Below are positions 29,109 to 58,856 of a stretch of DNA of 64,000 bases, piece by piece. The stretch covers positions 82,927 through 146,926 of the forward strand of contig JANNYF010000088.1 of assembly GCA_031409955.1 (NCBI GenBank), given 5' to 3'. A model generated the notes under the pieces. That model made no database searches. It was not told the DNA's origin and saw nothing but the letters and a program-made list of their open reading frames with translations. The translations under genes were made by a program, and so were the position numbers. Each line of letters opens with the position of its first letter. The first letter of the stretch is position 1. The stretch comes from Blastocatellia bacterium (GTDB lineage Bacteria; Acidobacteriota; Blastocatellia; RBC074).

Positions 29109-29285
29109 CATGATGGGTCCTCCAAAATGGTGGGGTAATAGATAGATTGCAACGACAAGCCTCAATATGTCTTGTCAAAAGCCAAGCACGTGCGTTGACT
29201 TCTACAACCTTGCATTAAAAGGCAATTCCCGACCTTGAGCCGGCTACTTAGGCAGGCTTTGTTATTTAGGTTTATTGCCTTTGGG

Positions 29286-34619: not shown

Positions 34620-37600
34620 TTAGAAAATGAACTTCAACGCGAGCTGAATGCGACGCGCGTAATTGTCCTGCGTCGAAGCTTGCACCGTCCCGAACTGTAC
34701 GACCGTTGGAGTTGTATTCGGTCCAGGGAAGAACGGGTGATTGAATGCGTTCAGGAATTCGGCGCGAAATTGCAGCGTCTTCCCTTCCGACAACTGCGTG
34801 TTCTTGAGGATTGATAAATCGTAGTTGCTCAAGTTGTCCGCCCGAATGAAACCGAAACGGAGCGGGAACGTCCGCACGTTGCTTCCGAGTTGTCCGGTGG
34901 CGTTATTCGCCGTCACTTTATTGAAGCCGGCATCGGTATTGAACCAGCGCGCGACGGTTTGTTGATCGCCGGGAAGGGCGATGGTTTTTACATCACCGTT
35001 GAAGATGATGTTGCCAAACCCCAGCGGCGCGCCGCTTTGATACGCGTAAATGCCCTGCACCTGCCAGCCGCTGACCACCCGCGAGATGAACCCGTTCGTG
35101 TTGCTCAACAAACTGCGTCCTTTGCCAAACGGCAATTCAAGGATGCCGTTGACGGTCATGCGATGCGGACGATCTACGCTGGAAATCACTTCGGTCGGAC
35201 GCGGATCAGCTCCGTTGAGCAGTTCGGTGGCTTCCATAAATTTGGAGTACGTGTAACTCGCTCCGAAAGTGAAACCATGCGTGAATCGTTTTTCCAACTC
35301 CATCTGCAACGAGTGATACCACGAATAGCCTTCGTTGGTCGTTGTGTTGACTGCGTCGAATTGCGGAAATGCTACCAACAGACGTGAACGCGCAATGTTG
35401 GTTGCACGAAAGACTGCGCCCGCCGTGGCTGGCATCAATCCGGCCAGCGGATTGCGTATGTTCGCCGACAGATAGTCGATTGTCGTCTGATCGCGGGTCG
35501 CGCTGGTACTCAAATATTTATTCGGCAGCGCGTTCAGGTTGCGCGTCATTTCGATGTGCGTCCCGCGATTGCCCACGTAACTGACTTCCGCCACGATGCC
35601 GCCGATCAATTGGCGCTGAAATCCGAGCTGCCAGCGTTGCATATACGGCGAAAGCGGTTTCGGATTAAAGAACGTGACGCTTTGTCCCAAGAATGTTGCC
35701 GGCCCATCCGCTGCCCCACGTGGTTCCGTGATGCCGTTCGGGAAGGGATTCGAGAGCGTGGAAAGAAAGGTCAACCCATTGTTCAGACTCGCCACGAACG
35801 GCGTCGCCTGGCTGAATCCGCTCTGGACAACATCGCCGCGTCGCTGTCCCAGAAAGCCATAAAAGATGCCGTATCCACCACGCACGACTGTCTTATCATT
35901 CAGTTTGTAAGCGAAGCCGAGGCGCGGCATCAGATTGTTTTTCGGCGTTTGATACAGACCACGCGGTTGACCATTCAGGCCGGGGAAGAGCAAGCCGCCG
36001 CGCAAATTGAATTGAGCCGCCGGAACTTCGGGCGTTGGGTTTAAGGCATACGCCGCGCGGGCTGCTGCTTCAAACGGTTGCACGAAGCTGGCATCGAAAC
36101 CCGAAACGCTGCGGTTGTAACGTTCCGTCAGCGCACCTTCAATCTCCCACCGCAAGCCGAGGTTGAGTGTCAGCCGTTGATTCACCTTCCAATCGTCGTG
36201 GAAGAAAATGCCTGTCGTGGTTGATTGTTCGGCGTAATCTGCCGCACGCGTCACGCCGCCGCTGCTGGGTAATCCCAGGAGCAAGGCCGCGACGGATTGG
36301 CCCAAACTTCCCGGCGCTGCTGCCGAATTATCAATCGGCCCGCGCGTCCAGGTGGAGTCAAAAACGAATTGACCGGTTTGCGTATTGGCAAAGAATTTGT
36401 CCGTCTCGCGGTACGAACGAAACTCCATGCCCGTCTTGAGCGAATGTGTCCCCAGCGATTTGTTCACGACCGCGACCAGCGAATGCGTATCGTTGGGGCG
36501 CAATTCACCGTTGACCCCCGTCCCCTGATAACCGGTGATATCGAAGCGCGGAAAGCGCCGAATAGCTTCGGGAATCAGCGCGTTATACGAAGCCGGAAAA
36601 CCGAGCGTCGTCAAATCCATGCCACGATTGCCCGGATTGGAATTGGTGCCGCGAATGAAGCGATTGTAGCCATACCGGAAGTTCAAGACGGTGGTCGAAT
36701 TGACCGTGTAGACGTCGTCGAAAGTCCCTTGCCGTGATTTGAAGATAAAGGCTTCACCCGTGGCGATGTTGCCAAAATAGTTATTGTAATCGCTGTCGCG
36801 ATCATACCAACTGGCGCGTCCAAAGATGCGCTGCTTATCGCTGATGACGTGGTCAATGCGAATGGTTTGCGTCAGGTATTTGATGTTTTCCAACAAGGCC
36901 GGATTCTGGAAATTGTTTGTGCCATCCGCATTGCCCGCTGTCAGCGGTTTCGGGAAGAAGCCGTCTATGACTTTGCGCGCGACGGGATTGATCATGTTGG
37001 CCGGAATAAGGTTGCCGATAAACGGGTCTTGTTGAAAACGTCCGCCCGCAATCGCGCGCCGCGTGAACGGATTAAAAATCTGATAGGGATGAACCGCGAG
37101 ATTGGTTGGATTCAAGGCTGGCACCAGCAGTTCAGAAAAATCTCCCTGCTTCATCTTTTCACTGGGTACGGTTGGCGTCCCGTTGTTGCGTGGGCGCGAT
37201 TCGGGAATCTTCTCAATGCCGTACATAAAGAATGTCCGGTTCTTGCCCTTGTAAACTTTCGGAATCCAAACCGGCCCGCCGACCGTGCCACCCCAACGGT
37301 TGTAACTGAAATCCGGGCGCGCGATCTTGTTCGCATTGGCAAAGAAATCGTTGGCGAACAGGTTGGGCGCAAGCTTCGTCCAATAGGCCGTACCGTGAAA
37401 ATTGTTCGTGCCTGCTTTGATGCTCAGGTTGGTGACGCCACCTTCGGTGTTGCCTGTCGCGGCGTCAAAGGTGGCCGTCTGCACTTTGAATTCGGCGACG
37501 AGGTCTTGCGGTGGAACGTAAGACGAAATGACTTCATTGGCATTGGCGGTCGCGGTGCTGGAGACGCCGTCAATTGTGATGTCGCTGCGATTGCCGCGCG

Positions 37601-38179
37601 TGCCGTCCATCGCATAACCGACAATGTGTGTCGGCTCGAAGGGGCGATCCAGGCGCTGCGAACCCGTGTAGGATACGCCGGTGGTCAACCCAATCAACTT
37701 GAATGGGTCGCCGTGCGCGATGGGCAATTCTGAAATCCGCCGTTGGTCAATCACCTGCCCCATCGAAGCGGTCGTCGTTTCGAGCGGCGAGCCTTCGGCG
37801 GTGACAGTAATAGAATCCTGTGCGCCGCCGACTTCCAGCGCGAGGTCGAGGTCAACGGTGCCGTTGACTTGCAACAAGACACCCTCGCGCACCAAGCGCT
37901 TGAACCCATTGGCTTCGACCGTAATCGAATAGGTTCCCGGCAATAACAATGGGGCCCGATAAACGCCTGATTCATTCGTCGTTAACGAGACAGTCGTCCC
38001 CATAGTCGTGCTGGTGATTTTGACGGTTGCATTGGGCACGACAGCCTGACCGGCATCGAAGATTTTGCCCGTAATCGTCCCGCGCGATTCCTGTGCGGAC
38101 GCGGGTAGCGCAAATGCTGCCGCCAATAAAAGCGCCGACAAAACGCTTCGCAATAAGTTGTCGAGTTTAATTTTCATAA
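34620..38179 (-). CDS. TonB-dependent receptor-like OMP with carboxypeptidase-regulatory-like N-domain
   Basis: Start [30 protein letters not shown] with the SD GGAG. Then [21 protein letters not shown]. ~1186 aa. Confidence 0.85.
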
Positions 38180-38297
38180 CTTCTCCTAAAGAATTCAGAC
38201 CGCGCAAGCGTTGTGCTTGCGAATTAGCCATCGGCAATGGCACGCACTGCCTTTGGAGCGATGCGTTGCCAAAGGGTTTCCCCCTCGCCAATCTTTT

Positions 38298-41200
38298 TTA
38301 GAACGTCAGTTTGAAGCCATACTGAATTTCGCGCCCGATATAGCCGGGACGCTTGTTGATGACCTTGCCGAAGTTCGCGTTATTGAAATCTACGAGGGGG
38401 TTGTCCCAGTTGATCTGGTTGAAGGCGTTGTAGGATTCCACGCGCACTTCAAATTTGTACCGTTCACGAATGCGGAATCCTTTGCTCAGCGTCATATCAA
38501 CTTGCGAAGTGCCAGGGCCAACCAAACCCTCATACGTCCACGCATTCTTGCGCACGATGTTCGCCGGATCAGCCGTGGTTCCGGCAGGTAACGCAGCAAA
38601 CACGGTCTTATCGAACCATTGACCAAAGGTCGGGTTCGAGATTTTCGGTGTGCCGCTGACAATCAGGTTTTGGTTGAAGATCAACTGACGGCCTGAATAC
38701 CAACGATTCGTCGTCGTCAATTGCCAGCCACCCAGCGCCATTTCAACCGCTGTGGGCGCGTTCTTCAGCAACCAGCGGCCTTTGCCAACCGGGATTTCCC
38801 ACGTCAGCGCGTGGTTGAAGCGATGCCGCGCAATGGGCAAATCACGCCACGTAAAATTACGGGCGTAGGCGGCGCGGTCATCAAAGAATTCCGTCTGGGC
38901 TTCGCGCTGATACGCATAGTTCACCAGCATGCTCAAGCCTTTGGCAAACGGACGTTGCGCTTGAAACTTGTACGAATAGACGTGCAAGTCGCGGCCTGCG
39001 GTGTTGGTCTGCGTGATCGCCGCGTATTGCGGATAGGGGCGCAACAACGAAGCCACCGTGACGTTGGCCGATCCATTGCGCAACGCGCCGGGGAATTTAT
39101 CAATCGTCAGGTAATTGCGGAAGGGATTGGCTACGGTTGCATTCGTGACCGAACGCGGATTGTCATACAGGAAGTTCGGATCAGCCTGGTTGAGGTCAAT
39201 ATCAATGGGCAGATTGAACCCGTTGTTGTAAAAGAAATCGAAGCTCACAACCGTGCGGCTCCAAATCTCACGTTGGTACGAGAGGCTGAAGCGGTCGTTG
39301 TTTTGCGGCTTCAAATTGTACTGATCCAAACTGACGGCATTGCCCAGATTCGTGTACCGTCCGAGCGTTTTTTCCGTCGGTTGTTGCAACGGATTGGGCG
39401 CGGTGCCAGTTGTGGGGAACGGATTGGAAACCGTGGCCAGCGGCACGCCGTTCAGTGGCGTCAGCACCGTCGTAATGGTGGAATAGCCCGTGTACTGATT
39501 GACGAAATCACCCAGCGGATCGCGGATTTTTGACGAGGGCGACATATAGCGCGCATAACCAAAGCGGAACACCGATTTGCTGTCGAGCTTGAACGCGCCA
39601 CCGATGCGCGGCATGAAGTTGGCTGCACTGCGAGACCACGCGTTGCGGTTGTTGGCATCCGTAAACACCCAGGCGCCGTTGTACGTCGGCTTGTACCCTT
39701 TGGTCGTCAACAGATTCAAAACAGCGGCAGGCATGTTCGGCGGCGTCGCCTGAAATTCAGGAATCGGGCTGGTCAAATCCAGTCGTTGCGACAACCGATT
39801 TTGCCGATCCACCGGGCCGGGTTCAAATTCCCAGCGCAGTCCCAAATTCAGCGTTAGGCGATTGTTCACTTTGAAATCATCCTGCACGTAGCCTGCATAA
39901 CCAAGCGTCACGACTTCCTGCACGGGCACGCGCCGACCGCTGGAGTTGTTGTCCACATAACCGAGCAGGAACGTCGCCCATTCGCTGCCCGAAATATTCA
40001 CGTTGGCATTGGAATTCTGACTCGCGGTGAGTTGTGGGCGGAAGTTCAAATTGATTGGCTCAAAGCGCGCGCCTTTGCCTTTGTCCACGCGCAATTCGCC
40101 ACCGAATTTGAGCTGGTGATTGCCTAAATACCAATTCATCCGCGCCGATCCGCCCCAGCCTTGCGGACGTTGCCAAAATTCTCTCCCGGTGCGCCCCAGG
40201 CGATTAGCGGTGCCAACATCTACTGCCGGATAATAAATATCGTCGCGTGTCAGCAAGGACGTGTACCAGGGATTGCTGGGCCAGAGAGCTTCAATGCCGG
40301 ATTTGCCGAGCAGGTTTGGCTCGTTCGCAAATTCGTCAATCAACTTGTGATAGTTGGCGCGCAGGTTCAGCACTTTGGACGACGAGATCGTGTAGACCGT
40401 ATCCGCCGCAATGCTCAGACCGTGGCGGTTGCTGCCCCCAGTCGGGAACAGTTTCCCTTGCGCGTCAGCCGTACCCGCTTCGAGCAAGCCGGTTTTGAAG
40501 TACCCAAAGCGCACAAAAGATTTCCATCGCTCATTGATGTTCCAGTCAAGGCGATTTGAGAGATTCCAATAATCAACATTCTCTGTTTTGGTGCCTTGCC
40601 AATTCAAGTCATTGCCCGGCAAATTGGGCAGCGGGATTTCGGCTAAAAGTTTTAGCGAAGTTGCATCGAACCGATTGATCGGAATGAGATTGCCCGCAAA
40701 GGCTGTGCGCACGCCGCTCGTGCCTGTCGCGGTGATCGGATCATAGATGGGGCGGACACACGGCGAGACGGTCGCGCCGGAACAGGTGCGCGACGATTGA
40801 CTGAAATTGCCTTGCCGTTCCAATGCAGTCGGTAACGTGAGCTTGACCGTAATCGGGCGATGGTCGTACCACTGCTCCCACGAGGTGAAAAAGAACAGCT
40901 TGTTTTTTACCAGCGGGCCACCCAGTGTGCCGCCGTACATTTTCAAATTTGTCCCGCGAAAAATCGTTTCATCCGCGCCCGCCGTGCGCACGATGGTGGG
41001 ATCGCCAAACGCGTTCAGGCGTGGGGTGCGGTTGTGATAATAGCCAGAGCCATGAAATCTATTTGTCCCTGATTTCATATTCAGAATCACGATGCCGCCT
41101 GCGCTGTAGCCGTATTCGGCGTCCACCGCATTCTTTTGAAAGGAAACCTCCTGCACCGCCTCAATTGATGGTGTGTAGGAAGTCTTGTAACTGGAGGTCA

Positions 41201-41825
41201 GTGGCACGCCGTCGAGTTGCACATCATTGGCGCGATTCGTTTGGCCGCCCGCATCGAATTCATTGGCGAAGGCGTGGTGATAGGGGCGATTTTCGCCATT
41301 CGCGTTTTCGCCGCCGTTGATGGTTGGATCAAGCGTGACAACGTTGTACGGATTGCGCCCGCGCAGCGGCAATTGGCTGATGATTTCATTGCCAATGGTG
41401 GTGGTGTCGCTGCTGGAATTGAATTGCACCGCGACGGGCGAATCCACAATGGTGATGGATTCGCTGACCGCGCCTGTTTCCAGATGAGCGTCTAAGGTCA
41501 GGTCGCCACGATTTTGCACAGTGAAGCCGCGTTGCTCATGGCGTTTGAAACCGCTCGCTTCGACGCGAATCGTGTAGATGCCGGATTCGACGAAGTCAAA
41601 AATATAGCGGCCTTCGTGATTGGTCATGCGTGTGACTTCAACCCCCGTGCCGTCATTTTTGAGGATGACTTTGGCATTTGGAATGGCAGCATTGGCGGCA
41701 TCGGTCACTGCACCTTGCACTTTGGCGCGATAATCCTGGGCGCTGACGAGTGAAACCAAAGTTAGGAAGAGCGCACCGCACACAATACTTCTGGCAACGC
41801 TTCTGGAAAGGCTGAAAAGATTCAT
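38298..41825 (-). CDS. TonB-dependent receptor-like OMP with carboxypeptidase-regulatory-like N-domain
   Basis: Start MNLFSLSRSVARSIVCGALFLTLVSLVSAQD with the SD AGGAG. ~1175 aa. Sits 7 nt downstream of the preceding receptor gene. Confidence 0.85.
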   Translation of the reverse strand: MNLFSLSRSVARSIVCGALFLTLVSLVSAQDYRAKVQGAVTDAANAAIPNAKVILKNDGTGVEVTRMTNHEGRYIFDFVESGIYTIRVEASGFKRHEQRGFTVQNRGDLTLDAHLETGAVSESITIVDSPVAVQFNSSSDTTTIGNEIISQLPLRGRNPYNVVTLDPTINGGENANGENRPYHHAFANEFDAGGQTNRANDVQLDGVPLTSSYKTSYTPSIEAVQEVSFQKNAVDAEYGYSAGGIVILNMKSGTNRFHGSGYYHNRTPRLNAFGDPTIVRTAGADETIFRGTNLKMYGGTLGGPLVKNKLFFFTSWEQWYDHRPITVKLTLPTALERQGNFSQSSRTCSGATVSPCVRPIYDPITATGTSGVRTAFAGNLIPINRFDATSLKLLAEIPLPNLPGNDLNWQGTKTENVDYWNLSNRLDWNINERWKSFVRFGYFKTGLLEAGTADAQGKLFPTGGSNRHGLSIAADTVYTISSSKVLNLRANYHKLIDEFANEPNLLGKSGIEALWPSNPWYTSLLTRDDIYYPAVDVGTANRLGRTGREFWQRPQGWGGSARMNWYLGNHQLKFGGELRVDKGKGARFEPINLNFRPQLTASQNSNANVNISGSEWATFLLGYVDNNSSGRRVPVQEVVTLGYAGYVQDDFKVNNRLTLNLGLRWEFEPGPVDRQNRLSQRLDLTSPIPEFQATPPNMPAAVLNLLTTKGYKPTYNGAWVFTDANNRNAWSRSAANFMPRIGGAFKLDSKSVFRFGYARYMSPSSKIRDPLGDFVNQYTGYSTITTVLTPLNGVPLATVSNPFPTTGTAPNPLQQPTEKTLGRYTNLGNAVSLDQYNLKPQNNDRFSLSYQREIWSRTVVSFDFFYNNGFNLPIDIDLNQADPNFLYDNPRSVTNATVANPFRNYLTIDKFPGALRNGSANVTVASLLRPYPQYAAITQTNTAGRDLHVYSYKFQAQRPFAKGLSMLVNYAYQREAQTEFFDDRAAYARNFTWRDLPIARHRFNHALTWEIPVGKGRWLLKNAPTAVEMALGGWQLTTTNRWYSGRQLIFNQNLIVSGTPKISNPTFGQWFDKTVFAALPAGTTADPANIVRKNAWTYEGLVGPGTSQVDMTLSKGFRIRERYKFEVRVESYNAFNQINWDNPLVDFNNANFGKVINKRPGYIGREIQYGFKLTF

Positions 41826-42040
41826 ATAGCTCCTTAAATTCTGGAAAGGCTGGCAAAGCAATCACGCTCCGCAGCGCTGGCGCTCGCTAATCCGAAGCGC
41901 AACTCGGCAAGGGAATCCGCAAAAGAAAAAAGGTTATTCAAATGTCCAGCAAAGCGTAATTGATTCGTTGATGAAATTTAGATCGCGCGCAGTTTACAAG
42001 CAATCGTCCTATCCGTAAAATTCATAATTCCGAAAGCTTC

Positions 42041-42076: not shown

Positions 42077-42994
42077 ATGGATTTCCACCAACTCAAAGTC
42101 TTTTATTCAGCCGTCAGCACCGGCAGTTTCACGCAAGCGAGCCAGGCGCTGAACCTCTCGCAATCCACCATCAGCCAGCACATCAAACAATTGGAAAACG
42201 AATTGGGCTGCCACCTGTTTCGCCGAGTGGGGCGCGGCGTGCATTTGACCGAAGCGGGGCATTTGCTGCGCGATCATTGCGAGAAGATTTTTCAGGATGT
42301 CAAAAACGCCGAGATGGCGATCAAAGAACTGAATGGGTTGCAGCGCGGGCGCATTCGCTTTGGCTCCGGCGCAACCACGCTAATCTATCAATTGCCAGCG
42401 GTCATCGAAGCCTTCAGCGCGGAGTTTCCCAACATTGAGTTGGTGATTTTTTCTGACACGACCGAAGCAATTATCCGCGAGATCAAAGCCCAGCGACTTG
42501 ACCTCGGCTTAGTCATGAAACCGCCCGCCGAAAACGATTTGCAGTTCACGCCGCTGTGCAACGAAGAGTTGATGATCGCGCTTTCCAGCAAACATCCATT
42601 AGCCAGCAAACGCGCCCTGACGATCCCGGATTTGCAATCGTTGCGCTTCATTCTGTACGAAAAGAAAACCGCGATGCGCAGGCTGATTGATGACTTCTTC
42701 AATGAACTCGGCGTCACGCCACAAATTGCGATGGTGATGGAAAACATCGAAGCGATTAAAAGCCTGGTTGGCAGTGGACTTGGTGCGTCTGTCTTACCTG
42801 CTCACGCGGTTGGAGAAGACGCCGTGGATAAAAAGGTACGCATGCTCCGCGTGCAAAAACGCACCTTGCGTCGTCAACTCGGTTTGATTTCCTTGAAGTC
42901 GGTCTTGCCGCCCAATGCCGTCCATCAATTTTCGCAATTGGTCGTCAGCCAACTCGGAGCGAAACACCGTATCGCCCGTCACGACCCGAGTTGA
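42077..42994 (+). CDS. LysR-family transcriptional regulator
   Basis: HTH QASQALNLSQSTISQHIKQLE plus a LysR substrate-binding domain. It is divergent from the receptor operon. A T-N11-A box lies upstream. Confidence 0.9.
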   Translation: MDFHQLKVFYSAVSTGSFTQASQALNLSQSTISQHIKQLENELGCHLFRRVGRGVHLTEAGHLLRDHCEKIFQDVKNAEMAIKELNGLQRGRIRFGSGATTLIYQLPAVIEAFSAEFPNIELVIFSDTTEAIIREIKAQRLDLGLVMKPPAENDLQFTPLCNEELMIALSSKHPLASKRALTIPDLQSLRFILYEKKTAMRRLIDDFFNELGVTPQIAMVMENIEAIKSLVGSGLGASVLPAHAVGEDAVDKKVRMLRVQKRTLRRQLGLISLKSVLPPNAVHQFSQLVVSQLGAKHRIARHDPS

Positions 42995-43111: not shown

Positions 43112-45007
43112 TTATTGTTTCTTCACTTCAACCGCATACACGTGTGTCGCGCCGTGTAGATTGGAGCGAAATACCAGCCATTTCATGTCGGGTGTAAACG
43201 TCACATTCGGTTCCAGTTGATAATTATGCTGCGCCAGATTGACCAGCTTTTCCGCTTTTAGCTTGCCCCCCTCCGGCGTGAACAAATAAATCCATTGCCC
43301 GTTGCCCGGCGCAGCCACGCTCGCCGGCCCGCCGCCATCGCCTGCGAATAATTTGCCGTTCGGCGCGACATTAAAATGCACCGACCATTCGGCGCGTGGT
43401 ACGGGATAACGCGTTTGCTTGCCCGTCGCGATTTCTACGCCTGCGAGCCAGAATTCTTTCCCCTTTGGGGTTTGCAAGTCATACCAAACCATCTTGCCAT
43501 CGGCGCTGAAAAATTCGTGTCCAGCAATTTCCATGTCCATCGTGCGTTTGTGCATCAGGCGCGGCGTCGGCTTGATATCTTTGTTATTTGGGATGCGAAT
43601 TGTCCAGATGCGATCTACCTTGTGCCAGGGGCCTTCGTGACAAAACATCATGAGGCCAGGGTCAGTGGGCGAAAACTGTACGTGGTTGAGCCAATCGGTC
43701 GCGTGATGAAACGTTTTGACTTCGCCCGTTTTGATATTGACGGTGTAGAGCGACATCGGCACGCGCGCCGCCAAGCGCTCTTCCATCATTTGCCCTTTGC
43801 CTGGATAGGCGTCACCGCGTTGATTGGGCGGCACTGGATTCAGCGGCGGCGCGGCATTGCCTTCGATCATACTGCCGCCCAGCAATGTTTCATCCGCATT
43901 CACAGCCAAGCCTGAGCCAGTCCGTAAGGTTGGGTTCGCCACAATCGCACGCGTCGCTTTGGTGTCGAGATGCGTGACATACACCGTGCCGTCTTTCACA
44001 TAAAAAACTTGGCGCGTCTTTGGGCCAATAACCAGATTGCTGGCTCGGCCTTCGACAATCTGTTCAATCTTGCCTGTCTTGAGTTCAATGGTGGCGATGC
44101 CTTTGGGATTGGTGACAACCAGCTTGTCGCCACTTGCGGTGTACGCATTTTGATGAAAGTACAAACTCGCCGTGCCTGCTTCGCGTGACAACCGAATAAC
44201 GCGATGCCCTGTGTCTGGATCAATCCATTCAAGCGGCGGTTCAGCGGCTTGCGCTTTCAAGTATGGCGCGAGCGGGAGCTTTTGCTGCTTCAATTCTGCC
44301 ACTACCAAACCCGCCATTTGCGACGCGCCGTATTCCGAAAAATGCGTGTCGTCCTGTTTGCCGTTTGGCAGCGATTTGTATTGCCCTGGTGCGAGGTGCA
44401 GGAAAAGCTGCTTAGAATCTTCGACACCGTGTTGCTCAATTAGCTTCTGGCTGGATTGATGCAGATCAATCAGCGCCACATTCAATTCTTTTGCCAACGC
44501 GCGCACGGCAGCAGGATATTCGCCGTGCGTGTCGAAGAATTTCCCCTGTGCGTCAAAGCGGCGGCGCATCACAGGCGTCAATAAAATCGGGGTTGCGCCT
44601 TTGCTGCGGACTTCGTTGATGAAGCGCGTCAAGTTCGTTTTGTAATCGGTGTTTGGCGCAGCATAGCGCGTCGGGTCTTCTTTCTTTTCGTCGTTGTGGC
44701 CGAATTGGATGAAAACCCAATCGCCCTTTTGCAATTGCTGAGCTACCTTGTCCCAGCGTCCCTCGTCAATGAAACTTTTGGTGCTGCGACCATTCACTGC
44801 GTGATTTTTGATGACGACACGATCATCAAAGTACATCGGCAGCAACTGTCCCCAGCCGCGTTCGGGATTGTCCGCGAGCGGTTTGTCCGCCATGGTCGAA
44901 TCGCCGATCATGAAGGCGGTGACACGCGCTGCCGGAGGTTGTGCTGCCACGCTCAACCACATGAAGATCAGCCAGCAATGAAGGAGAACTATTTTTCTGA
45001 CAGGCAT
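43112..45007 (-). CDS. Fusion protein: N-terminal CE12/SGNH acetylesterase + C-terminal oligogalacturonide lyase (PL22, Ogl-like beta-propeller)
   Basis: N-terminal part has GDSTMADK, GWGQ and GHNDE. C-terminal part begins EWIDPDTGHRVIRLS...YFHQNAYTASGDKLVV...ELKTGKIEQIVEG, which matches the Ogl N-terminal pattern (DPDTG..V.RLT...YF.Q...G.KL). Confidence 0.7.
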   Translation of the reverse strand: MPVRKIVLLHCWLIFMWLSVAAQPPAARVTAFMIGDSTMADKPLADNPERGWGQLLPMYFDDRVVIKNHAVNGRSTKSFIDEGRWDKVAQQLQKGDWVFIQFGHNDEKKEDPTRYAAPNTDYKTNLTRFINEVRSKGATPILLTPVMRRRFDAQGKFFDTHGEYPAAVRALAKELNVALIDLHQSSQKLIEQHGVEDSKQLFLHLAPGQYKSLPNGKQDDTHFSEYGASQMAGLVVAELKQQKLPLAPYLKAQAAEPPLEWIDPDTGHRVIRLSREAGTASLYFHQNAYTASGDKLVVTNPKGIATIELKTGKIEQIVEGRASNLVIGPKTRQVFYVKDGTVYVTHLDTKATRAIVANPTLRTGSGLAVNADETLLGGSMIEGNAAPPLNPVPPNQRGDAYPGKGQMMEERLAARVPMSLYTVNIKTGEVKTFHHATDWLNHVQFSPTDPGLMMFCHEGPWHKVDRIWTIRIPNNKDIKPTPRLMHKRTMDMEIAGHEFFSADGKMVWYDLQTPKGKEFWLAGVEIATGKQTRYPVPRAEWSVHFNVAPNGKLFAGDGGGPASVAAPGNGQWIYLFTPEGGKLKAEKLVNLAQHNYQLEPNVTFTPDMKWLVFRSNLHGATHVYAVEVKKQ

Positions 45008-45160
45008 AAAATCCTTCTCTGAAAACGATTTTCTCTTGAACGCGCGAAGCGTCTGGAGTGCGACGGCTCCTGCGAATCTCAAATTTGAGATTTGAAATCA
45101 ATGGAGCCAAAGTTACATCAAGCCGCAGCACCACAAACGCTTCGCGCATTTCTTCAGCGC

Positions 45161-48100
45161 TTAGAAATAAAGCTTCAGCGCAATCTGTACAAAGCGCGGC
45201 GTGTAGCCTGACCGTCCAGGCGTCACATTCAAATAGCCCCAGCGATCTGCTGTGTAAGCCTGACGCAAACGATATTGCTGAATCCCCGCCACCGTCGTGA
45301 GATCGAACTGATTCGCGTTCTGCGAGAAGAAGCCTTCGCCGACGGGCACGTGGAAGAAATCACGGCGCAAGGCTTGGGTTCCGGTGATGCGATTGCTGGC
45401 GATGACTTGATTGATCTGCGCCAGCATTGCCGTGCCTGCGGCTGTCGTGCGTGCCGGGCGTGTGGCCGACGCAAATGCAGCCCACGCATCGTACTCGGCG
45501 TTGGAGATATTCGCTTCATTCGGCGCGGCAAAAATCTCGCCCGAATCTTCCAATCGTCCCGCGCGGAAGAACGGATGATTGAAGGCATTGATCGCATCTA
45601 CGCGGAATTGCAGGCGGCGTTTGCTGTCTTTGCCGAGGTAGAAGTTTTTCTGCACCGACAAATCCAGAAAATGCTGCGTGGGCATGCGGGCATTATCAAA
45701 CGCGCGCGGCGCATTGCCGAGCGTGCCTTTGACCGGACGCATAAACGCGGCGGGGTTGAAATACGGCTCGCACGCCTGATCTACGGGGCAACTGCGGCTC
45801 CAACGGGGATTGAGGAGCGGCACGCCCGACACGATGTCAGGCCGAATCGCGCGCACGTTGCCGTCAATGCCCAAGCCATTATCGTCGCGCAACACTGTGA
45901 CCAGCGGGATGCCGCCTTGAATGCGACCGATGCCGCTCAGACTCCAACCGCCCAGCACGGCTTCGACAATGCCCGGCGCTTTCGCCAGATAACTGCGCCC
46001 GCGTCCAAGCGGCAAATCGTACAGGAACGAAGAACTGAACGCGTGTTTGATGTCGAAGAGTGAAACCGAGCGATCCGCCGAACGCGGCGCTCCGTAATTG
46101 ACGTGTCCAATCGAGCGCACATTCAAATTGACAAAGCGCACATCGCCCGCGTCTGAAGCATCGTCCAGCCCTTTGCCAAACGTGTAATTGACCGTGTACG
46201 ACAAACCTTTGGTATGCCGTCGCCGCACGCTGGCAGTGCCAGCGTGACGTATGCTGTTGGCCGAAGCGTTGAAGACTTCGTTCAATCCTTCAAAGCCCAA
46301 ATATTTGGTGGCGAGATAGGCCGGCGAGTAATTCACCAACGCCCCGGTCACTGTGCGCCGACCCAGCGGGTCGTTCACATTCGGATTGAGCGAGTTGAGA
46401 CCGCGCGCCACAAAGCCTTCGGAAACGGAAAACGGTACTTGGTTGATATTGTTTGGTGCGAGGAATAACCGCGTGCCTTTGCTGCCGTTGTACGACAATT
46501 CAATCACCGTGTTCTGCGGGAGTTCATAAGCCGTCGTCAGGCTCCAGCTTTGCACATACGGCACATGCGCGTTGGGCGAAATCGCCAGCGCCGCGCCGAT
46601 CAGGTTGATGCTGTCCTGGGTAATCAGCCCATTGCTTGGAATGTTCAGAAACGTGTCCGGCGCAATAGGTCGAAGAATAGGAACGTTACAGCAAAGCCGC
46701 GCCGCCACGACGTTCGTGTTGTTGACGGTTTGCACCACCTGATTGCGATTGTCATAGGTTCCGTAGGTCACTGTTCCGGCGGCGAAGTCAGGAGCCGGAT
46801 TGCGCGTCATCCCCGTCAATGGCGCGTGCGACAGCCCATAGCCGCCGCGAATCACGAACGAATCGCGGCGCTGATTGAGACCGAAAATCTTTGGTGCCCA
46901 CGCAAAGCCGAAGCGCGGCTCGAAGTTCATTTTTTCAATTGGGAAGATATACCGCGAACGTCCGCCACGTCCCGAATACGCAAACGGTGGAATCAAAGTC
47001 GTCGTCGGCACACCGTCGGGAATCGCGGCATTGGCGGGCGCAGTCGTGGCCAACAATCCCAATCCAACCGCAATCGCGCGGCGTTGTGTGGCGTCCAGGT
47101 TGACGGTTTGCGCCAGCTCCGGCAGGAACACGCCTTGCCGATCATATTTTTCGGTGCGCGGCAATTGCAGGGAATAACGCAAGCCGAGATTCAAGGTCAG
47201 ATTCGGTTTGATCTTCCAATCGTTTTGTGCAAATCCAGCGGCGGAATTCCACTGGTAATAATACGGAATCAGCACTTCGCGCAGCGTCGCCTGATTATAA
47301 GTTCCGAGCAGATATTGCGCGAACTCAATGCCGCCTGTGCCTGCCGCAGCCCCGTTGCTATTGCTCAACGTGCGATTGCGGTTGAATTCATAACGACCTC
47401 CCGAAGCGCCAAACAGCGGGATCGTTTTCAGCCGCTGTTGCTGCAATTGCATGCCGAATTTCCACGCCATATTGCCGCGCACCCACGAAACGTTATCCGC
47501 GATTTCATAGCTGTGTTCGGCGTTTTCGTTTTGCTGCGACAAGCTCCAACCAACCGCCGCCGCGCCTGTCACGAACTCCGGCAAGCCGCCCGCCGTTACG
47601 CTCGGCAAGCCCAGTTCGGTCGAAAAGTTGCGCCCGGTCAACGCGTCGAATTCCGGCGGCAGATTTTTGGTGAAGCGCCCAAACGTGTAGTTGAGCCGCA
47701 ATTCATTGATGAGCCGCGCCGAGAACGTGTGTGTATCGGACACCAGCACTTGCCGCGACCAACTGTAATCGGTGCCGCCCGTGTTGATTTCATCGCGCCC
47801 AACCTGGAAATCCCCGCGCCCGCGATCCCCGCGAATCGGCACTTGCGTGTAGCGTCCGTACATCCGGTTATTCTCAGTGAGCTGATGATCGAGCCGCAGC
47901 GTCATGCGCTTTTCCAGATTCTTGATGAACGACGGCAGCACATAGTTGCGCAGGTTCCCGCCATCCAGAAAATACTCGCCTGCGGTGGGCATATATTTCA
48001 AGAGCGACACGCTGGTCGGATCAAGCATGCTTTGCGGAATGATGTTGTTGGGGAAGACCGGGTACGTCGTGCCGGCGGCTAAAGTGATGCGGCTGAACTG

Positions 48101-49255
48101 CCGGCCCGACACGGTGTACGGATTGTAGAGCGTGGCATCGCGGATTTGCGTTTGTAAGGCGAACTTCTCGGCCACGGAACGCAGCGCGTAGCCGCCATTG
48201 ACGCCGACGACATTGCTGAAATCGCCGCGCAGCATTTCTGCGGTCGGCAACAACAACGTGCCTTGCGAGCCGTCGTAGTAATAGCGCGGCTCCAACGCGA
48301 AGAAAAAGAACGAGCGATTACGTCCGTCATAACCAGCGGGGCCAAAGAATTTTTTCGGCAGCCAGATCGGGCCGCCATACGTCAAGCCGAACTGATGTTG
48401 CCGCCGATTGGACTCCGGGCGATTCGTGACATTCGTAGTGAACGGCGCAGCGTTGAGCGAAGGATTGCGATGATACCAATAAAACAAACCGTTGTAGCTG
48501 TTCGTGCCGGACTTCGTAGTCATATTCACGACACCGCCGCCGGTCTGTCCAAATTCTGCCGAGAAGTTGGAAGTCTGCACAGTGAATTCCTGCACCGTGT
48601 CCGGCGAAAACGTCACAATCGCGCGACCCAAGCCTGCTCCTGTGTTGTTCGCGCCATCCGCCAGAATCGCGGTGCTGCCCGCGCGACCGCCGTTGACGTT
48701 GACGTTGAAGCCGGGAGCCGGAATGTCTTGCCCCAGTTCCGGGTCTTCTGTGCCCGCTACGCCGGAGACGTTGCCGACGAGCAGGACAAGGTCAAGCACA
48801 CTACGATTGTTCAGCGGCATTTCGGCAATTTGTCGTTCCGTGATCGTTTGCCCTGACGTGCCGCTGACGGTGTTCAGCAAAGGTGTTTCCGCCGTGATGT
48901 CCACGACCGTTTCGACCGTGCCGGTTTCAAGCGCGATGTTCACCGACGCCGTCGTCGCCGTGTCCACTTTGACGTTGTTCACGAGCGCCTTTTTGAAGCC
49001 CGGCGATTCGACCGTGATGGAATACATGACAGGCTCCAATGACGAAGCTGTGAACGCCCCTTCTGACGAAGTCGTGAGCTTGGTGCTTTGATTCGTGCCG
49101 ACGTTTGTGACCGTGACCGTCGCGCCCGGCACGACGGCGCCCGTTGCGTCGGTCACAGTGCCACTGATGCCGCCGCGATTGGTTTGCGCTGCGGCAGGAA
49201 CCGCCAGCCAAAAGGCTACGAATAAAAAGACCACGAAGCGAAACATACTTTGCAT
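45161..49255 (-). CDS. TonB-dependent receptor-like OMP with carboxypeptidase-regulatory-like N-domain (largest paralogue)
   Basis: Signal peptide MQSMFRFVVFLFVAFWLAVPAAAQ, then GGISGTVTDATGAVVPGATVTVTN. ~1365 aa. Confidence 0.85.
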   Translation of the reverse strand: MQSMFRFVVFLFVAFWLAVPAAAQTNRGGISGTVTDATGAVVPGATVTVTNVGTNQSTKLTTSSEGAFTASSLEPVMYSITVESPGFKKALVNNVKVDTATTASVNIALETGTVETVVDITAETPLLNTVSGTSGQTITERQIAEMPLNNRSVLDLVLLVGNVSGVAGTEDPELGQDIPAPGFNVNVNGGRAGSTAILADGANNTGAGLGRAIVTFSPDTVQEFTVQTSNFSAEFGQTGGGVVNMTTKSGTNSYNGLFYWYHRNPSLNAAPFTTNVTNRPESNRRQHQFGLTYGGPIWLPKKFFGPAGYDGRNRSFFFFALEPRYYYDGSQGTLLLPTAEMLRGDFSNVVGVNGGYALRSVAEKFALQTQIRDATLYNPYTVSGRQFSRITLAAGTTYPVFPNNIIPQSMLDPTSVSLLKYMPTAGEYFLDGGNLRNYVLPSFIKNLEKRMTLRLDHQLTENNRMYGRYTQVPIRGDRGRGDFQVGRDEINTGGTDYSWSRQVLVSDTHTFSARLINELRLNYTFGRFTKNLPPEFDALTGRNFSTELGLPSVTAGGLPEFVTGAAAVGWSLSQQNENAEHSYEIADNVSWVRGNMAWKFGMQLQQQRLKTIPLFGASGGRYEFNRNRTLSNSNGAAAGTGGIEFAQYLLGTYNQATLREVLIPYYYQWNSAAGFAQNDWKIKPNLTLNLGLRYSLQLPRTEKYDRQGVFLPELAQTVNLDATQRRAIAVGLGLLATTAPANAAIPDGVPTTTLIPPFAYSGRGGRSRYIFPIEKMNFEPRFGFAWAPKIFGLNQRRDSFVIRGGYGLSHAPLTGMTRNPAPDFAAGTVTYGTYDNRNQVVQTVNNTNVVAARLCCNVPILRPIAPDTFLNIPSNGLITQDSINLIGAALAISPNAHVPYVQSWSLTTAYELPQNTVIELSYNGSKGTRLFLAPNNINQVPFSVSEGFVARGLNSLNPNVNDPLGRRTVTGALVNYSPAYLATKYLGFEGLNEVFNASANSIRHAGTASVRRRHTKGLSYTVNYTFGKGLDDASDAGDVRFVNLNVRSIGHVNYGAPRSADRSVSLFDIKHAFSSSFLYDLPLGRGRSYLAKAPGIVEAVLGGWSLSGIGRIQGGIPLVTVLRDDNGLGIDGNVRAIRPDIVSGVPLLNPRWSRSCPVDQACEPYFNPAAFMRPVKGTLGNAPRAFDNARMPTQHFLDLSVQKNFYLGKDSKRRLQFRVDAINAFNHPFFRAGRLEDSGEIFAAPNEANISNAEYDAWAAFASATRPARTTAAGTAMLAQINQVIASNRITGTQALRRDFFHVPVGEGFFSQNANQFDLTTVAGIQQYRLRQAYTADRWGYLNVTPGRSGYTPRFVQIALKLYF

Positions 49256-49481
49256 GGGAAACACCTCTTTCCGATTATGATTCTGTCTGGAGCGGGAACC
49301 CGCCGATTGTCTGTCTGTTGACGGCGCTCAGTTGAGCATAGCCATTTCGGCAAGTCAAATATTTTTCTACTGAGCCAAAAGCTTTTTTTACTGAGTAGAA
49401 ATTGACCTTGCCTTTTGGATTCTGTGCCGCTAGGGTAGGCTGCCGCATACGCGCTACCCCAGAACTTGCAAAAGTGAAACC

Positions 49482-50600
49482 ATGAGCGAAAAAAACAACG
49501 GAACGAACAAATACTTTGTGGAAGTCGTCGCCAAAGCCTTAGACGTGCTGGACGCGTTCAGAAAGCTGGAAGATGAGTTGACGCTGTCGGACATTGCCCG
49601 TCGCACGAACCTTCCTTCCAGCCACGCTTTTCGGTTGCTCCACACGCTCGAGCAAAAAGGGTGGGTGCGCAAGGTCAACGGCTCCAAAAAATTTCATCGC
49701 GTCAATCGTACGCAGCGCTGGCGCATTGGCTTTGCGATGCAATCCGGGCAATTGCAATTTTCGCAGGATGTGTTGCGCGGCTTGGAAGAAGCGGCGGAAA
49801 AACACGGCGTGCAACTGCTGGTGCTGGACAACGAATACAGCGAAGAAACGGCGGTCACGAATGCGCAAACGTTTGTGCGACAAGCGGTGGATTTGGTGAT
49901 CGAATTTCAGGTGAATGAACGTATCGCGCCAGTCATCGCTCATACTTTTGCCGAAGCAAAAACTCCCTGCCTGGCAATTGATATTCCGCAACCGGGCGCG
50001 GTCTATTTCGGCGCGAACAATTATCAGGCCGGGCTTCTGGCCGGACGCGCACTCGGCGAATATGCGCGCGCGCAATGGAAAGGCAAGGTGGACAAAGTGC
50101 TGTTGTTGGAACAGCCGATTGCTGGCGCGATACCCCAAGCCCGGATGACCGGAGCCGTAAATGGCATCCAGGAAATCATCGGCACAATGCCCGAATCGTC
50201 CGTCATTCATTTGGATGGCGGCAGCAATGAACAGGAAAGCCGTCGGGAAACTCTGCAATTTCTCAACGCGCTTTTGCCCACCGAAAAAGTATTGATCGCT
50301 ACGATTCACGACCCCGCCGCGCTCGGCGCAGTGCGAGCCATCAAAGAGGCCGGGCGCAACAAAAAAACGGTGGTGGTCGTGGGGCAGAACGCAACGCACG
50401 AAGCACGCAAAGAACTGAACAAAGCGCATTCGTGTTTGCTCGGACTGGTGGGATTTTTCCCGGAAAAATATGGCGAGCAACTCATCCCGCTCGCCTTGAA
50501 AATGCTGGGCGGCGAAGCCATGCCGCCGATGGCGTTTATCGAACATGCCCTCATTACCAAAAACAATGTTGCGGACTTTTACCCGGCTGCGAAGATTTGA
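49482..50600 (+). CDS. Transcriptional regulator with an IclR-type wHTH fused to a periplasmic-binding-protein type I (LacI-like sugar-binding) domain
   Basis: N-terminal part LDVLDAFRKLEDELTLSDIARRTNLPSSHAFRLLHTLEQKGWV is IclR-like. The C-terminal ~280 aa has a PBP1/LacI-type sugar-binding fold (VVVVGQNATHEA..., LIATIHDPAALGAVRAIKEAG). Confidence 0.7.
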   Translation: MSEKNNGTNKYFVEVVAKALDVLDAFRKLEDELTLSDIARRTNLPSSHAFRLLHTLEQKGWVRKVNGSKKFHRVNRTQRWRIGFAMQSGQLQFSQDVLRGLEEAAEKHGVQLLVLDNEYSEETAVTNAQTFVRQAVDLVIEFQVNERIAPVIAHTFAEAKTPCLAIDIPQPGAVYFGANNYQAGLLAGRALGEYARAQWKGKVDKVLLLEQPIAGAIPQARMTGAVNGIQEIIGTMPESSVIHLDGGSNEQESRRETLQFLNALLPTEKVLIATIHDPAALGAVRAIKEAGRNKKTVVVVGQNATHEARKELNKAHSCLLGLVGFFPEKYGEQLIPLALKMLGGEAMPPMAFIEHALITKNNVADFYPAAKI

Positions 50601-50703: not shown

Positions 50704-50767
50704 ATTCCTCTACTCTTTCCGAAAACTAAATGACTCTGCCAATCTCTAATCTTCCTTCCCCAATTCG

Positions 50768-50783
50768 TGGCACTCCGATTGCA
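50768..50783 (+). promoter_or_regulatory. Sigma-54 (RpoN) -24/-12 promoter upstream of flhA
   Basis: TGGCAC-tccga-TTGCA is an exact match to TGGCAC-N5-TTGCW. It lies ~65 nt upstream of the flhA ATG. Confidence 0.7.
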
Positions 50784-50847
50784 AACACTTTCTTCAGCCC
50801 CTGGCCGAATCGTCTGCCTCGACGTCCTTCGCGCCCGCGAAATCTTT

Positions 50848-52929: not shown

Positions 52930-52931
52930 CT

Positions 52932-52994
52932 CACGTAGGAGCGAATTTATTCGCTTATGTTGACAAACTGAGCGAATGAATTCGCTCCTACGTG
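52932..52994. repeat. Inverted repeat with self-palindromic arms (GCGAATTTATTCGC / GCGAATGAATTCGC) between flhA and flhF
   Basis: CACGTAGGAGCGAATTTATTCGC ... GCGAATGAATTCGCTCCTACGTG. It is 21/23 complementary with a 17-nt loop. Confidence 0.6.
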
Positions 52995-53026
52995 CAAACC
53001 CTAAACCCCCAGATTAGAAGCCCAAT

Positions 53027-54592: not shown

Positions 54593-54634
54593 GCACCAGC
54601 GCGCTTCATAACCTCACAGTAGAAAGTAACAACG

Positions 54635-55546: not shown

Positions 55547-55582
55547 TTGCCGCCCCCCAGTTGCGCCAGCCCTGACGAGAAC

Positions 55583-57419: not shown

Positions 57420-57500
57420 TTCACGTCGCAGCGCATTCATTCGCTGTGGTGTTGTGCTTCGAGCCAATAAAGTTGCTACTACATGAAAAGAATTTGAGTT

Positions 57501-58391: not shown

Positions 58392-58413
58392 TGCCCCTCA
58401 AGGAGAATGAATT

Positions 58414-58851: not shown

Positions 58852-58856
58852 AAAGC

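What the first reader, a model, noticed from the sequence alone, without database searches (positions are those of the whole stretch)
43112..45007. Single polypeptide fusing a CE12 acetylesterase to a PL22 oligogalacturonide lyase
The N-terminal ~230 aa carries the SGNH blocks GDSTMADK, GWGQ and GHNDE. The C-terminal ~400 aa begins with the Ogl-like signature (DPDTGHRVIRLS...YFHQNAYTASGDKLVV...TGKIEQIVEG) and is beta-propeller-like. Coupling deacetylation to lyase cleavage in one secreted enzyme is unusual. Ogl is normally cytoplasmic and not fused to an esterase. It suggests extracellular processing of acetylated oligogalacturonides. The gene neighbours the largest receptor and the IclR-PBP regulator.
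Basis: partly seen in the sequence, partly recalled or inferred. Interest (0 to 1): 0.55.

Follow-up and report, generated by a model that had tools for sequence, protein, structure and literature searches.

The report
Exported acetylesterase fused to Ogl-like lyase
A soil acidobacterium encodes one exported protein that joins a pectin-type acetylesterase to a divergent relative of oligogalacturonate lyase, a real but rare fusion that probably strips acetyl groups from imported pectin fragments and then cleaves them.

Summary
An uninterrupted 631-aa ORF lies on the minus strand (43112-45007). It carries a Sec-type leader, a complete CE12-like SGNH esterase (aa 23-251), a 4-residue connector and a PL22-like seven-bladed propeller (aa 256-631). 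Pfam, PDB sequence search and an AlphaFold model (pLDDT 89; best folds YeOGL 3PE7, YxiM, RGAE) all agree.

The interpretation needs three corrections.
- The propeller is not an Ogl orthologue. It belongs to a large, uncharacterised clade from Acidobacteriota and Verrucomicrobiota. That clade keeps the proposed catalytic Arg/His and one metal ligand, but changes HxH to ExN and lacks the Gln350 loop.
- Export is normal for this clade: 96 of 103 stand-alone members have Sec or Tat leaders. Location is more likely periplasmic than extracellular, because the gene follows a TonB-dependent-type receptor gene.
- Neighbourhoods (GH106, PL11, GH28, GH51, GH88/105) point to rhamnogalacturonan-I/pectic oligosaccharides, not only homogalacturonan.

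The fusion is rare but recurrent, with about ten lineages in both domain orders. I found no published description. It is a new variant of a known kind and of moderate interest.

The parts
43112..45007 (-). Complete gene for the 631-aa fusion protein (stop codon 43112-43114)
   Evidence: ORF list. Identical protein P0001 in public assemblies.
45012..45019 (-). Shine-Dalgarno-like GAGAAGGA, 4 nt upstream of the ATG at 45007
   Evidence: Sequence read.
44942..45007 (-). Sec-type signal peptide, aa 1-22 (MPVRKIVLLHCWLIFMWLSVAA|QPP). No lipobox.
   Evidence: Sequence shows a hydrophobic core (maximum Kyte-Doolittle 2.58) followed by VAA-Q. Modelled as one N-terminal helix, aa 2-21. No dedicated signal-peptide predictor was available.
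44255..44941 (-). CE12-like SGNH acetylesterase domain, aa 23-251. Catalytic blocks: Ser37 (GDS), Gly73, Asn105 (GHND), Asp219-x-x-His222.
   Evidence: Pfam PF13472/PF00657. PDB hits YxiM and RGAE. Foldseek 2O14 and 1DEO. Motif positions. Closest stand-alone relatives are 76-81% identical, and more distant relatives (58-66% identical) are named rhamnogalacturonan acetylesterase by NCBI.
44243..44254 (-). Four-residue connector AQAA (aa 252-255). It joins the end of the esterase (...YLK) to the first conserved motif of the propeller (EPPLEW...). The propeller's own leader peptide is absent.
   Evidence: Junction compared with the C-termini of stand-alone esterases and the N-termini of stand-alone propellers.
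43115..44242 (-). PL22-like seven-bladed beta-propeller, aa 256-631. Arg466, His497 and His544 correspond to YeOGL Arg217, His242 and His287. Glu599 and Asn601 replace His353 and His355.
   Evidence: Pfam PF14583. PDB hits 3PE7 and 3C5M. Profile-profile alignment at probability 99.9% with residue mapping.
45161..49264 (-). Upstream co-oriented gene for a 1367-aa TonB-dependent-receptor-type outer-membrane barrel (CarboxypepD_reg + OMP_b-brl_4). Likely the same transcription unit, with a 153-nt gap.
   Evidence: Pfam. No terminator-like site in 45008-45160. Orthologues at 72-73% identity lie next to stand-alone propeller genes in L022 and L023. A TBDT lies within 600 bp in 23 of 80 loci.
42077..42994 (+). 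Convergent LysR-family regulator gene, a candidate local regulator
   Evidence: Pfam HTH_1 + LysR_substrate. A 72%-identical orthologue lies near the fusion gene in L001.
49482..50600 (+). IclR-HTH + periplasmic-binding-protein-fold regulator, divergent from the receptor gene. Association is not conserved elsewhere.
   Evidence: Pfam. No homologue in any of the 89 fetched loci.

Best explanation
The gene encodes an exported, most likely periplasmic, bifunctional pectin-oligosaccharide enzyme. After Sec export and leader cleavage, the N-terminal CE12-type SGNH esterase removes O-acetyl groups from galacturonic-acid residues. These would sit on rhamnogalacturonan-I or acetylated homogalacturonan fragments brought across the outer membrane by the co-transcribed TonB-dependent-type receptor.

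The esterase is joined by only four residues to a PL22-like propeller, which then cleaves the deacetylated oligosaccharide by metal-assisted beta-elimination. The conserved His497 would act as base and Arg466 as stabiliser, as proposed for Ogl His242 and Arg217. The metal site is rebuilt from His3Gln to His/Glu/Asn. Such an oxygen-rich site would suit Ca2+ (or Mn2+) outside the cytoplasm.

The fusion arose within a Blastocatellia-like lineage from two separately encoded, separately exported enzymes, with loss of the propeller's own leader.

Shown here: the domain identities, intact catalytic motifs, the leader, the junction, the recurrence of the fusion and the gene neighbourhoods. Inferred: both enzymatic activities, the substrate, the metal, the periplasmic location and co-transcription.
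For: - Domain identities.
- The esterase has all four SGNH catalytic blocks. More distant relatives (58-66% identical) are named rhamnogalacturonan acetylesterase.
- Propeller residues: R466, H497, H544, H442 and H457 are at least 97% conserved in both canonical Ogl and the exported clade. E599 and N601 are 100% conserved in the clade where Ogl has H353 and H355. All 47 distant representatives carry EPN.
- Export: the query has a leader, and 96 of 103 stand-alone clade members have Sec (84) or Tat (12) leaders, whereas Ogl has none.
- Receptor linkage: a 153-nt gap with no terminator-like site. TBDTs are co-oriented in 47 of 80 loci and within 600 bp in 23 of 80.
- Pectin/RG-I context: the 78%-identical orthologue lies among GH28, an esterase, GH51 and GH106. 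Other fusions lie with GH106, GH43, GH88 and GH2. A stand-alone member lies next to PL11 and GH106. GH106 occurs in 30 of 80 loci. The window itself carries PL11, a GH88/105-like gene and two more CE12-like genes.
- Functional coupling: independent fusions exist in both domain orders and with extra modules (15 proteins, about 10 lineages). Separate CE12-like genes lie within 600 bp of the propeller gene in about 7 of 80 loci.
- Junction analysis shows an end-to-end join with loss of the internal leader.
- From established knowledge: RG acetylesterase is known to be needed before RG lyases and hydrolases can act.
Against: - No member of the exported ExN clade has been characterised, so lyase activity is inferred from homology at about 23% identity.
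- Three of the four Ogl metal ligands are changed or absent, which could mean a different metal, a different substrate or a different chemistry.
- The identities of the Ogl catalytic and metal residues come from my memory of Abbott et al. 2010 (paper not held), supported only by their invariance here.
- No signal-peptide predictor or localisation data were available, so secretion beyond the periplasm by a type II system cannot be excluded.
- The window also holds glucuronoxylan-type genes (GH67, CE15), and a CE15-propeller fusion exists (P0075). Uronic-acid substrates other than pectin therefore remain possible.
- The promoter and terminator scans are weak evidence for an operon.
Confidence: 0.6

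Rival explanations
1. Same bifunctional chemistry, but the enzyme is secreted to the medium or cell surface. It would act there on acetylated pectin or oligomers before uptake.
For: A signal peptide is present. A published metatranscriptome study of an acidobacterial MAG assumes PL22 enzymes act extracellularly (PMC10564751). Multi-domain CAZymes are often extracellular.
Against: There is no lipobox, C-terminal sorting domain or carbohydrate-binding module. Characterised PL22 enzymes prefer short oligomers (PMC13314786). The gene lies immediately downstream of an outer-membrane importer gene, a pattern repeated in 23 of 80 loci. 12 of 103 relatives use Tat leaders, which is typical of periplasmic metalloenzymes though not exclusive to them.
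Confidence: 0.2
2. The propeller half is not an oligogalacturonide lyase. With its rebuilt metal site it would either cleave a different uronic-acid linkage (for example Rha-(1,4)-GalA ends of RG-I, or glucuronate-containing oligosaccharides) or serve mainly as a binding or scaffold domain for the esterase.
For: H353->E, H355->N, H211->W and deletion of the Q350 loop are fixed across the clade. The strongest CAZyme linkage is to GH106 rhamnosidase (30 of 80 loci), not to homogalacturonan enzymes. A CE15 glucuronoyl-esterase-propeller fusion exists (P0075). CE15 and GH67 genes lie in the window.
Against: The pure binding-domain version is unlikely. The putative base His, the Arg, one metal His and further active-site His/Glu residues are at least 97% conserved in both groups. 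The replacement residues Glu and Asn are themselves invariant metal-ligand types. A changed specificity within lyase chemistry is compatible with the best explanation and is covered in the novel case.
Confidence: 0.15
3. The fusion is an artefact. A sequencing or assembly error, or a recent inactivating mutation, would have merged two adjacent genes, and the product would not function as one protein.
For: Both halves exist elsewhere as separate genes at 81-85% identity.
Against: The same N-to-C architecture with the same short junction occurs at 76-90% identity in independent assemblies from JGI, ENA, Logan and NCBI. The internal leader has been cleanly removed rather than read through. In the related 9.5-Mb genome the two genes are about 850 kb apart, so the fusion is not a simple stop-codon loss between neighbours. 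All catalytic motifs are intact.
Confidence: 0.01

Closest known systems
Oligogalacturonate lyase Ogl (CAZy PL22): Yersinia enterocolitica YeOGL (PDB 3PE7), Vibrio parahaemolyticus VPA0088 (3C5M), Dickeya Ogl
   Same: Same seven-bladed propeller fold (Foldseek E 2.7e-26, TM 0.81). Full-length Pfam PF14583 match. Profile-profile probability 99.9%. Arg217, His242, His287, His192, His207 and Glu208 equivalents are conserved.
   Different: Only about 23% identity. H353 and H355 are replaced by Glu and Asn, the Q350 loop is deleted and H211 becomes Trp. It is exported rather than cytoplasmic. It is fused to an esterase. Its context is receptor/GH106/PL11 rather than a kdg-regulon context. Activity is untested.
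Rhamnogalacturonan acetylesterase and relatives (CAZy CE12): Aspergillus aculeatus RGAE (1DEO), Bacillus subtilis YxiM (2O14), PaeY
   Same: SGNH fold (TM 0.78 to 1DEO). Sequence hits at E 3.5e-19 and 4.8e-12. All four catalytic blocks are present. Relatives at 58-66% identity are named RG acetylesterase. The context is pectin side-chain and backbone genes.
   Different: It carries a lyase-type propeller at its C-terminus. It lacks the galactose-binding-like domain of YxiM, which is present in the window paralogue 33225-34550. NCBIfam PaeY and AxeA1 scores are far below the equivalog cut-offs.
Esterase-lyase fusions in pectin degradation, such as PL1 pectate lyases carrying a methylesterase activity (Pd5_PL1 of Catenovulum, PMC7953866)
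   Same: Same logic: one polypeptide removes an ester substituent from galacturonan and then cleaves the backbone by beta-elimination.
   Different: The families differ (CE8+PL1 acting on methylated polymer, against CE12+PL22-like). That enzyme is a surface or extracellular endo-enzyme, whereas this one is probably a periplasmic oligosaccharide-processing enzyme.
Other multi-domain PL22-like proteins: PL22+PL22_2 tandem of Fervidibacter sacchari (PMC11535203); tandem propellers P0006-P0011; CE15-propeller P0075
   Same: They show that PL22-type propellers outside the Enterobacterales occur in multi-domain, exported CAZymes.
   Different: The partner domains differ, and none has been characterised biochemically.

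Membership tests
CE12 / SGNH rhamnogalacturonan-acetylesterase-like | SGNH alpha/beta/alpha fold similar to characterised CE12 members | tested here: met
   Foldseek: 2O14 at E 4.7e-14; 1DEO at E 6.6e-14, TM 0.78. phmmer against PDB: 3.5e-19 and 4.8e-12. Pfam PF13472 and PF00657 above cut-off.
CE12 / SGNH rhamnogalacturonan-acetylesterase-like | Four catalytic blocks: GDS Ser nucleophile, block II Gly, block III GxND Asn, block V DxxH | tested here: met
   GDSTMADK at aa 35 (Ser37), NGRS at 72 (Gly73), GHNDE at 103 (Asn105), DDTH at 219 (Asp219/His222).
CE12 / SGNH rhamnogalacturonan-acetylesterase-like | Deacetylation of RG-I or pectin | not testable with these tools
   Only names of relatives and gene context are available. 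NCBIfam PaeY scores 76 bits against a cut-off of 1000.
PL22 (Pfam Pectate_lyase22) | Full-length match to the family profile, and a seven-bladed propeller closest to solved Ogl structures | tested here: met
   PF14583 at 63.6 bits (cut-off 30), covering 16-383 of 386 positions. 3PE7 and 3C5M are the top fold hits by 16 orders of magnitude. hhalign probability 99.9%.
PL22 (Ogl sensu stricto) | Proposed Bronsted base His242 and Arg217 (YeOGL numbering; roles recalled from Abbott et al. 2010) | tested here: met
   His497 and Arg466 align with them and are at least 98% conserved in the clade.
PL22 (Ogl sensu stricto) | Mn2+ site formed by His287, His353, His355 and Gln350 | tested here: not met
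   Only His287 (His544) is retained. H353->Glu599 and H355->Asn601 are 100% fixed, and the segment carrying Gln350 is deleted.
PL22 (Ogl sensu stricto) | Cytoplasmic, leaderless, single-domain protein of about 388 aa | tested here: not met
   The query has a Sec leader and an esterase domain. Canonical sequences start MAKGK... with no leader.
PL22 (Ogl sensu stricto) | Beta-elimination of short (unsaturated) oligogalacturonides | not testable with these tools
   No characterised member of the ExN clade was found in the PDB or the literature.

The most novel reading that the evidence does not exclude
The propeller half represents an uncharacterised, exported subfamily of PL22-type lyases, abundant in soil Acidobacteriota and Verrucomicrobiota. 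Its rebuilt His/Glu/Asn site would bind Ca2+ rather than Mn2+. Its real substrates would be rhamnogalacturonan-I-derived oligosaccharides rather than oligogalacturonides. On this reading the fusion is a self-contained 'deacetylate-then-eliminate' exo-enzyme for acetylated RG-I fragments in the periplasm. That would be a new specificity and metal usage in PL22, and a missing step of acidobacterial pectin turnover in soil.
Probability: 0.3. Interest if true: 0.55.

Novelty: new variant of a known kind. Interest (0 to 1): 0.37.

Why it matters
Acidobacteriota are among the most abundant soil bacteria, and how they break down plant cell-wall pectin is known almost only from gene counts.

This locus shows that their 'oligogalacturonate lyase' genes are not the cytoplasmic Ogl of enterobacteria. 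They form an exported clade with a different metal site, usually linked to outer-membrane importers and rhamnosidases. Current pathway reconstructions that equate PL22 with cytoplasmic Ogl may therefore be wrong for these organisms.

Independent fusions to CE12 esterases, in both domain orders, are a natural 'Rosetta stone' indicating that deacetylation and cleavage act on the same substrate.

The fused enzyme is also a compact candidate for processing acetylated pectins such as sugar-beet pectin, which resist ordinary pectinases.

It does not overturn any principle. Esterase-lyase fusions and multi-domain CAZymes are familiar.

Tried and rejected
1. I tried to read Abbott et al. 2010 for the Ogl active-site residues. 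The paper is not held, and the Klebsiella OGL paper gives no residues. Residue roles therefore rest on my memory plus invariance.
2. A plain MAFFT alignment misplaced the HxH region. I replaced it with motif counts and an hhalign profile-profile alignment. This also corrected an off-by-one in my first numbering: the residues are Glu599 and Asn601.
3. I suspected that loci L008 and L014, where tblastn matched both halves, showed the pre-fusion gene pair. ORF inspection showed the propeller gene comes first there and is followed by a different multi-domain SGNH gene. They show neighbourhood but are not the direct precursor. The closest stand-alone esterase lies about 850 kb from the propeller gene in the 9.5-Mb genome.
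4. Most two-stretch hits in the representative search turned out to be esterase-only multi-domain proteins. Only 15 proteins carry both domains.
5. The 527-aa PD40 propeller at 19502-21085 is not a paralogue (E 0.04).
6. The IclR-PBP regulator is not conserved near relatives.
7. Promoter and terminator scans gave nothing above the shuffled expectation.
8. Literature searches for CE12-PL22 fusions, PL22_2, exported or periplasmic Ogl and acidobacterial PL22 found no characterisation.
Full report
**1. Observation**

The window carries one uninterrupted ORF on the minus strand, 43112..45082. The finding's end coordinate, 45007, is the ATG that gives MPVRKIV... and a 631-aa product. That ATG is preceded by GAGAAGGA with a 4-nt spacer. 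The identical 631-aa protein is already called in public assemblies (P0001; an independent Logan contig).

Pfam finds Lipase_GDSL_2 at aa 34-206 (E 1.8e-20). It also finds Pectate_lyase22 at aa 263-629 (E 1.8e-17), at twice the gathering score and covering nearly the whole profile. The PDB sequence search returns YxiM (2O14) and A. aculeatus RGAE (1DEO) for the first half. It returns the two solved oligogalacturonate lyases (3PE7, 3C5M) for the second half.

An AlphaFold2 model built on 54 homologues has mean pLDDT 89.2. Its best PDB fold matches are 3PE7 (E 2.7e-26, TM 0.81), 3C5M, 2O14 and 1DEO (TM 0.78). The next propeller scores 1.9e-10.

**2. Anatomy**

- Residues 1-22 form a Sec-type leader (MPVRK, hydrophobic core, VAA|QPP) without a lipobox.
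- The esterase half has all four SGNH blocks: Ser37, Gly73, Asn105, and Asp219-x-x-His222.
- Stand-alone esterases end ...YLKPxxxxxxR. Stand-alone propellers begin with leader-AAQ-xxx-EPPLEW.
- In the fusion these are joined as ...YLK-AQAA-EPPLEW. That is a four-residue connector with the propeller's own leader removed.

**3. The propeller is PL22-like but not an Ogl orthologue**

I aligned a profile of 122 clade members against a profile of 117 canonical Ogl sequences (hhalign probability 99.9%).

Conserved at 97% or more in both groups:
- Arg217/Arg466
- His242/His497
- His287/His544
- His192/His442
- His207/His457
- Glu208/Glu458

Fixed differences:
- His353 becomes Glu599.
- His355 becomes Asn601.
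- His211 becomes Trp461.
- The ten-residue segment carrying Gln350 is absent.

Canonical sequences have an invariant RQ[VI]THPHPSFTPD motif. The clade has LEPNVTFTPD, and all 47 more distant representatives (37-60% identity) also carry EPN.

From memory of Abbott et al. 2010 (paper not held), His242 is the proposed base. His287, His353, His355 and Gln350 bind Mn2+. On that basis the catalytic dyad and one ligand survive, while the rest of the metal site is rebuilt with oxygen ligands. That would be consistent with Ca2+ use outside the cytoplasm, but this is an inference.

**4. Export is a clade property**

Of 103 stand-alone close relatives, 84 have Sec-like and 12 have twin-arginine leaders. 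The other seven look like truncated start calls. Canonical Ogl starts MAKGK... directly before the propeller. 'Secreted Ogl' is therefore ordinary in these organisms, and only the esterase fusion is special.

**5. How common is the fusion?**

The exact architecture occurs at 76-90% identity in P0002-P0005 and in MAG locus L007. Both halves have closer stand-alone relatives: 85% for the propeller and 81% for the esterase. In a related 9.5-Mb genome the two genes lie about 850 kb apart. The fusion is therefore a lineage-specific event within Blastocatellia-like Acidobacteriota (record titles).

Local domain mapping of all 390 proteins then retrieved found 15 with both domains (Pfam):
- Esterase-propeller order: this lineage; P0040 with an added galactose-binding-like domain; P0084 with two esterase modules; P0241, a 2108-aa protein; P0243; and P0256.
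- Propeller-esterase order: P0081, P0107, P0117, P0244 and P0245.

A CE15-propeller fusion (P0075) and propeller tandems also exist. Among 80 species-level genome loci only one holds the true fusion. About seven have a separate CE12-like gene within 600 bp, nearly always co-oriented (examples). The fusion is rare but recurrent, which argues for functional coupling.

**6. Context**

On the minus strand the gene follows, after 153 nt with no terminator-like site, a 1367-aa TonB-dependent-receptor-type barrel. This is the largest of five such genes in the window. A LysR regulator is convergent downstream. An IclR-HTH/PBP regulator is divergent beyond the receptor.

The surrounding 45 kb is a polysaccharide-utilisation island containing:
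- a PL11 RG lyase and an SGNH esterase
- a GH88/105-like gene and an SDR
- CE15, GH67 and GH95
- a YxiM-like second CE12
- a ROK gene and an enolase-superfamily gene

Related loci give a consistent picture:
- The 78%-identical orthologue lies between GH28, an esterase and GH51 on one side and GH106 on the other, with a 72%-identical LysR nearby.
- P0040 lies with GH106, GH43, a TBDT, GH88 and GH2.
- The stand-alone P0023 lies with TBDTs, PL11 and GH106.
- Across 80 loci, TBDTs occur in 47 (all co-oriented, 23 within 600 bp) and GH106 in 30. GH51 occurs in 13, GH95 in 11, CE12-like genes in 11, GH28 in 5 and PL11 in 4. The FlhA control occurs in 0.
- Receptor orthologues at 72-73% identity flank stand-alone propellers in L022 and L023.
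- The IclR-PBP gene has no counterpart in any fetched locus.

This context is pectic and leans towards rhamnogalacturonan-I.

**7. Mechanism proposed**

The receptor imports acetylated pectic oligosaccharides. In the periplasm the esterase half deacetylates GalA residues, and the tightly tethered propeller half performs beta-elimination. From established knowledge, RG acetylesterase action is a prerequisite for RG lyases and hydrolases, so a fused pair makes biochemical sense.

Both activities, the substrate, the metal and the compartment are inferences. My confidence in the overall picture is about 0.6. The rivals are extracellular action (0.2), a changed or non-lyase role for the propeller (0.15) and an artefact (0.01).

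**8. Comparison and novelty**

At Pfam/CAZy-family level the protein is CE12 + PL22. It fails two features of Ogl sensu stricto, the His3Gln metal site and cytoplasmic single-domain status. It should therefore be described as 'PL22-like, exported ExN subfamily', not as Ogl.

Esterase-lyase fusions are known in pectin degradation (CE8/PL1 type; PMC7953866). PL22 tandems have been noted (PMC11535203). I found no paper describing a CE12-PL22 fusion or characterising the exported clade. One metatranscriptome paper simply assumes extracellular PL22 action in an acidobacterial MAG (PMC10564751). Automated annotations call the fusion 'oligogalacturonide lyase'.

**Verdict:** a real feature, a new variant of a known kind, of moderate interest (0.37). 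The most interesting aspect is the uncharacterised exported PL22-like subfamily rather than the fusion itself.

Noticed in passing
window 33225-34550 (-) and 5485-6324 (-): There are two further CE12-like SGNH esterase genes in the window. One is YxiM-like with a galactose-binding-like domain, 41% identical to the fusion's esterase half, next to GH95. The other is a 279-aa gene, 31% identical, directly upstream of a PL11 rhamnogalacturonan lyase.
   Followed up: partly
window 3598-49264: A polysaccharide-utilisation island of about 45 kb holds five TonB-dependent-receptor-type genes (10588-14028, 25275-29165, 34620-38291, 38298-41861, 45161-49264). It also holds PL11, a GH88/105-like gene, CE15, GH67, GH95, a ROK gene, an SDR and an enolase-superfamily gene. 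It mixes pectin (RG-I) and glucuronoxylan-type functions.
   Followed up: partly
window 50767-60578 (+): A flagellar gene cluster (FlhA, FlhF-like SRP GTPase, MinD/FleN-like ATPase, FliA-type sigma factor, FliM, FlgF/FlgG-type rod proteins) starts directly after the IclR-PBP regulator. This suggests a motile Blastocatellia-like organism.
   Followed up: no
window 9317-10429 (-) and 8130-9311 (-): A 370-aa protein with an N-terminal hydrophobic leader and no Pfam match, and a 393-aa Big_5-domain protein, lie directly downstream of the receptor gene 10588-14028. They are candidate accessory or surface glycan-binding proteins. No homologue was found in the fetched loci.
   Followed up: partly
window 19502-21085 (-): A 527-aa PD40/TolB-type propeller protein sits inside the CAZyme island. 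It is not related to the PL22-like propeller (BLASTP E 0.04). Its function is unknown.
   Followed up: partly
proteins P0121, P0125, P0126 and many others: JGI/IMG names many stand-alone relatives of the esterase half 'DNA sulfur modification protein DndE'. They are SGNH esterases that NCBI names rhamnogalacturonan acetylesterase, so this looks like a propagated misannotation.
   Followed up: no
proteins P0075, P0006-P0011, P0241: Other unusual architectures occur in the same propeller clade. P0075 is a CE15 glucuronoyl-esterase-propeller fusion. Tandem propeller-propeller proteins run to about 815-850 aa. P0241 is a 2108-aa protein with two esterase modules and a C-terminal propeller.
   Followed up: partly
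loci L009, L027, L065: Genome records titled 'uncultured Heliomicrobium sp.' and 'uncultured Bifidobacterium sp.' carry genes 56-82% identical to this acidobacterial protein. These MAG labels are probably wrong.
   Followed up: no
proteins P0013, P0018, P0021, P0023, P0024 etc.: About 12% of stand-alone clade members use twin-arginine (Tat) leaders instead of Sec leaders. This hints that some are exported folded, possibly with the metal already bound.
   Followed up: partly
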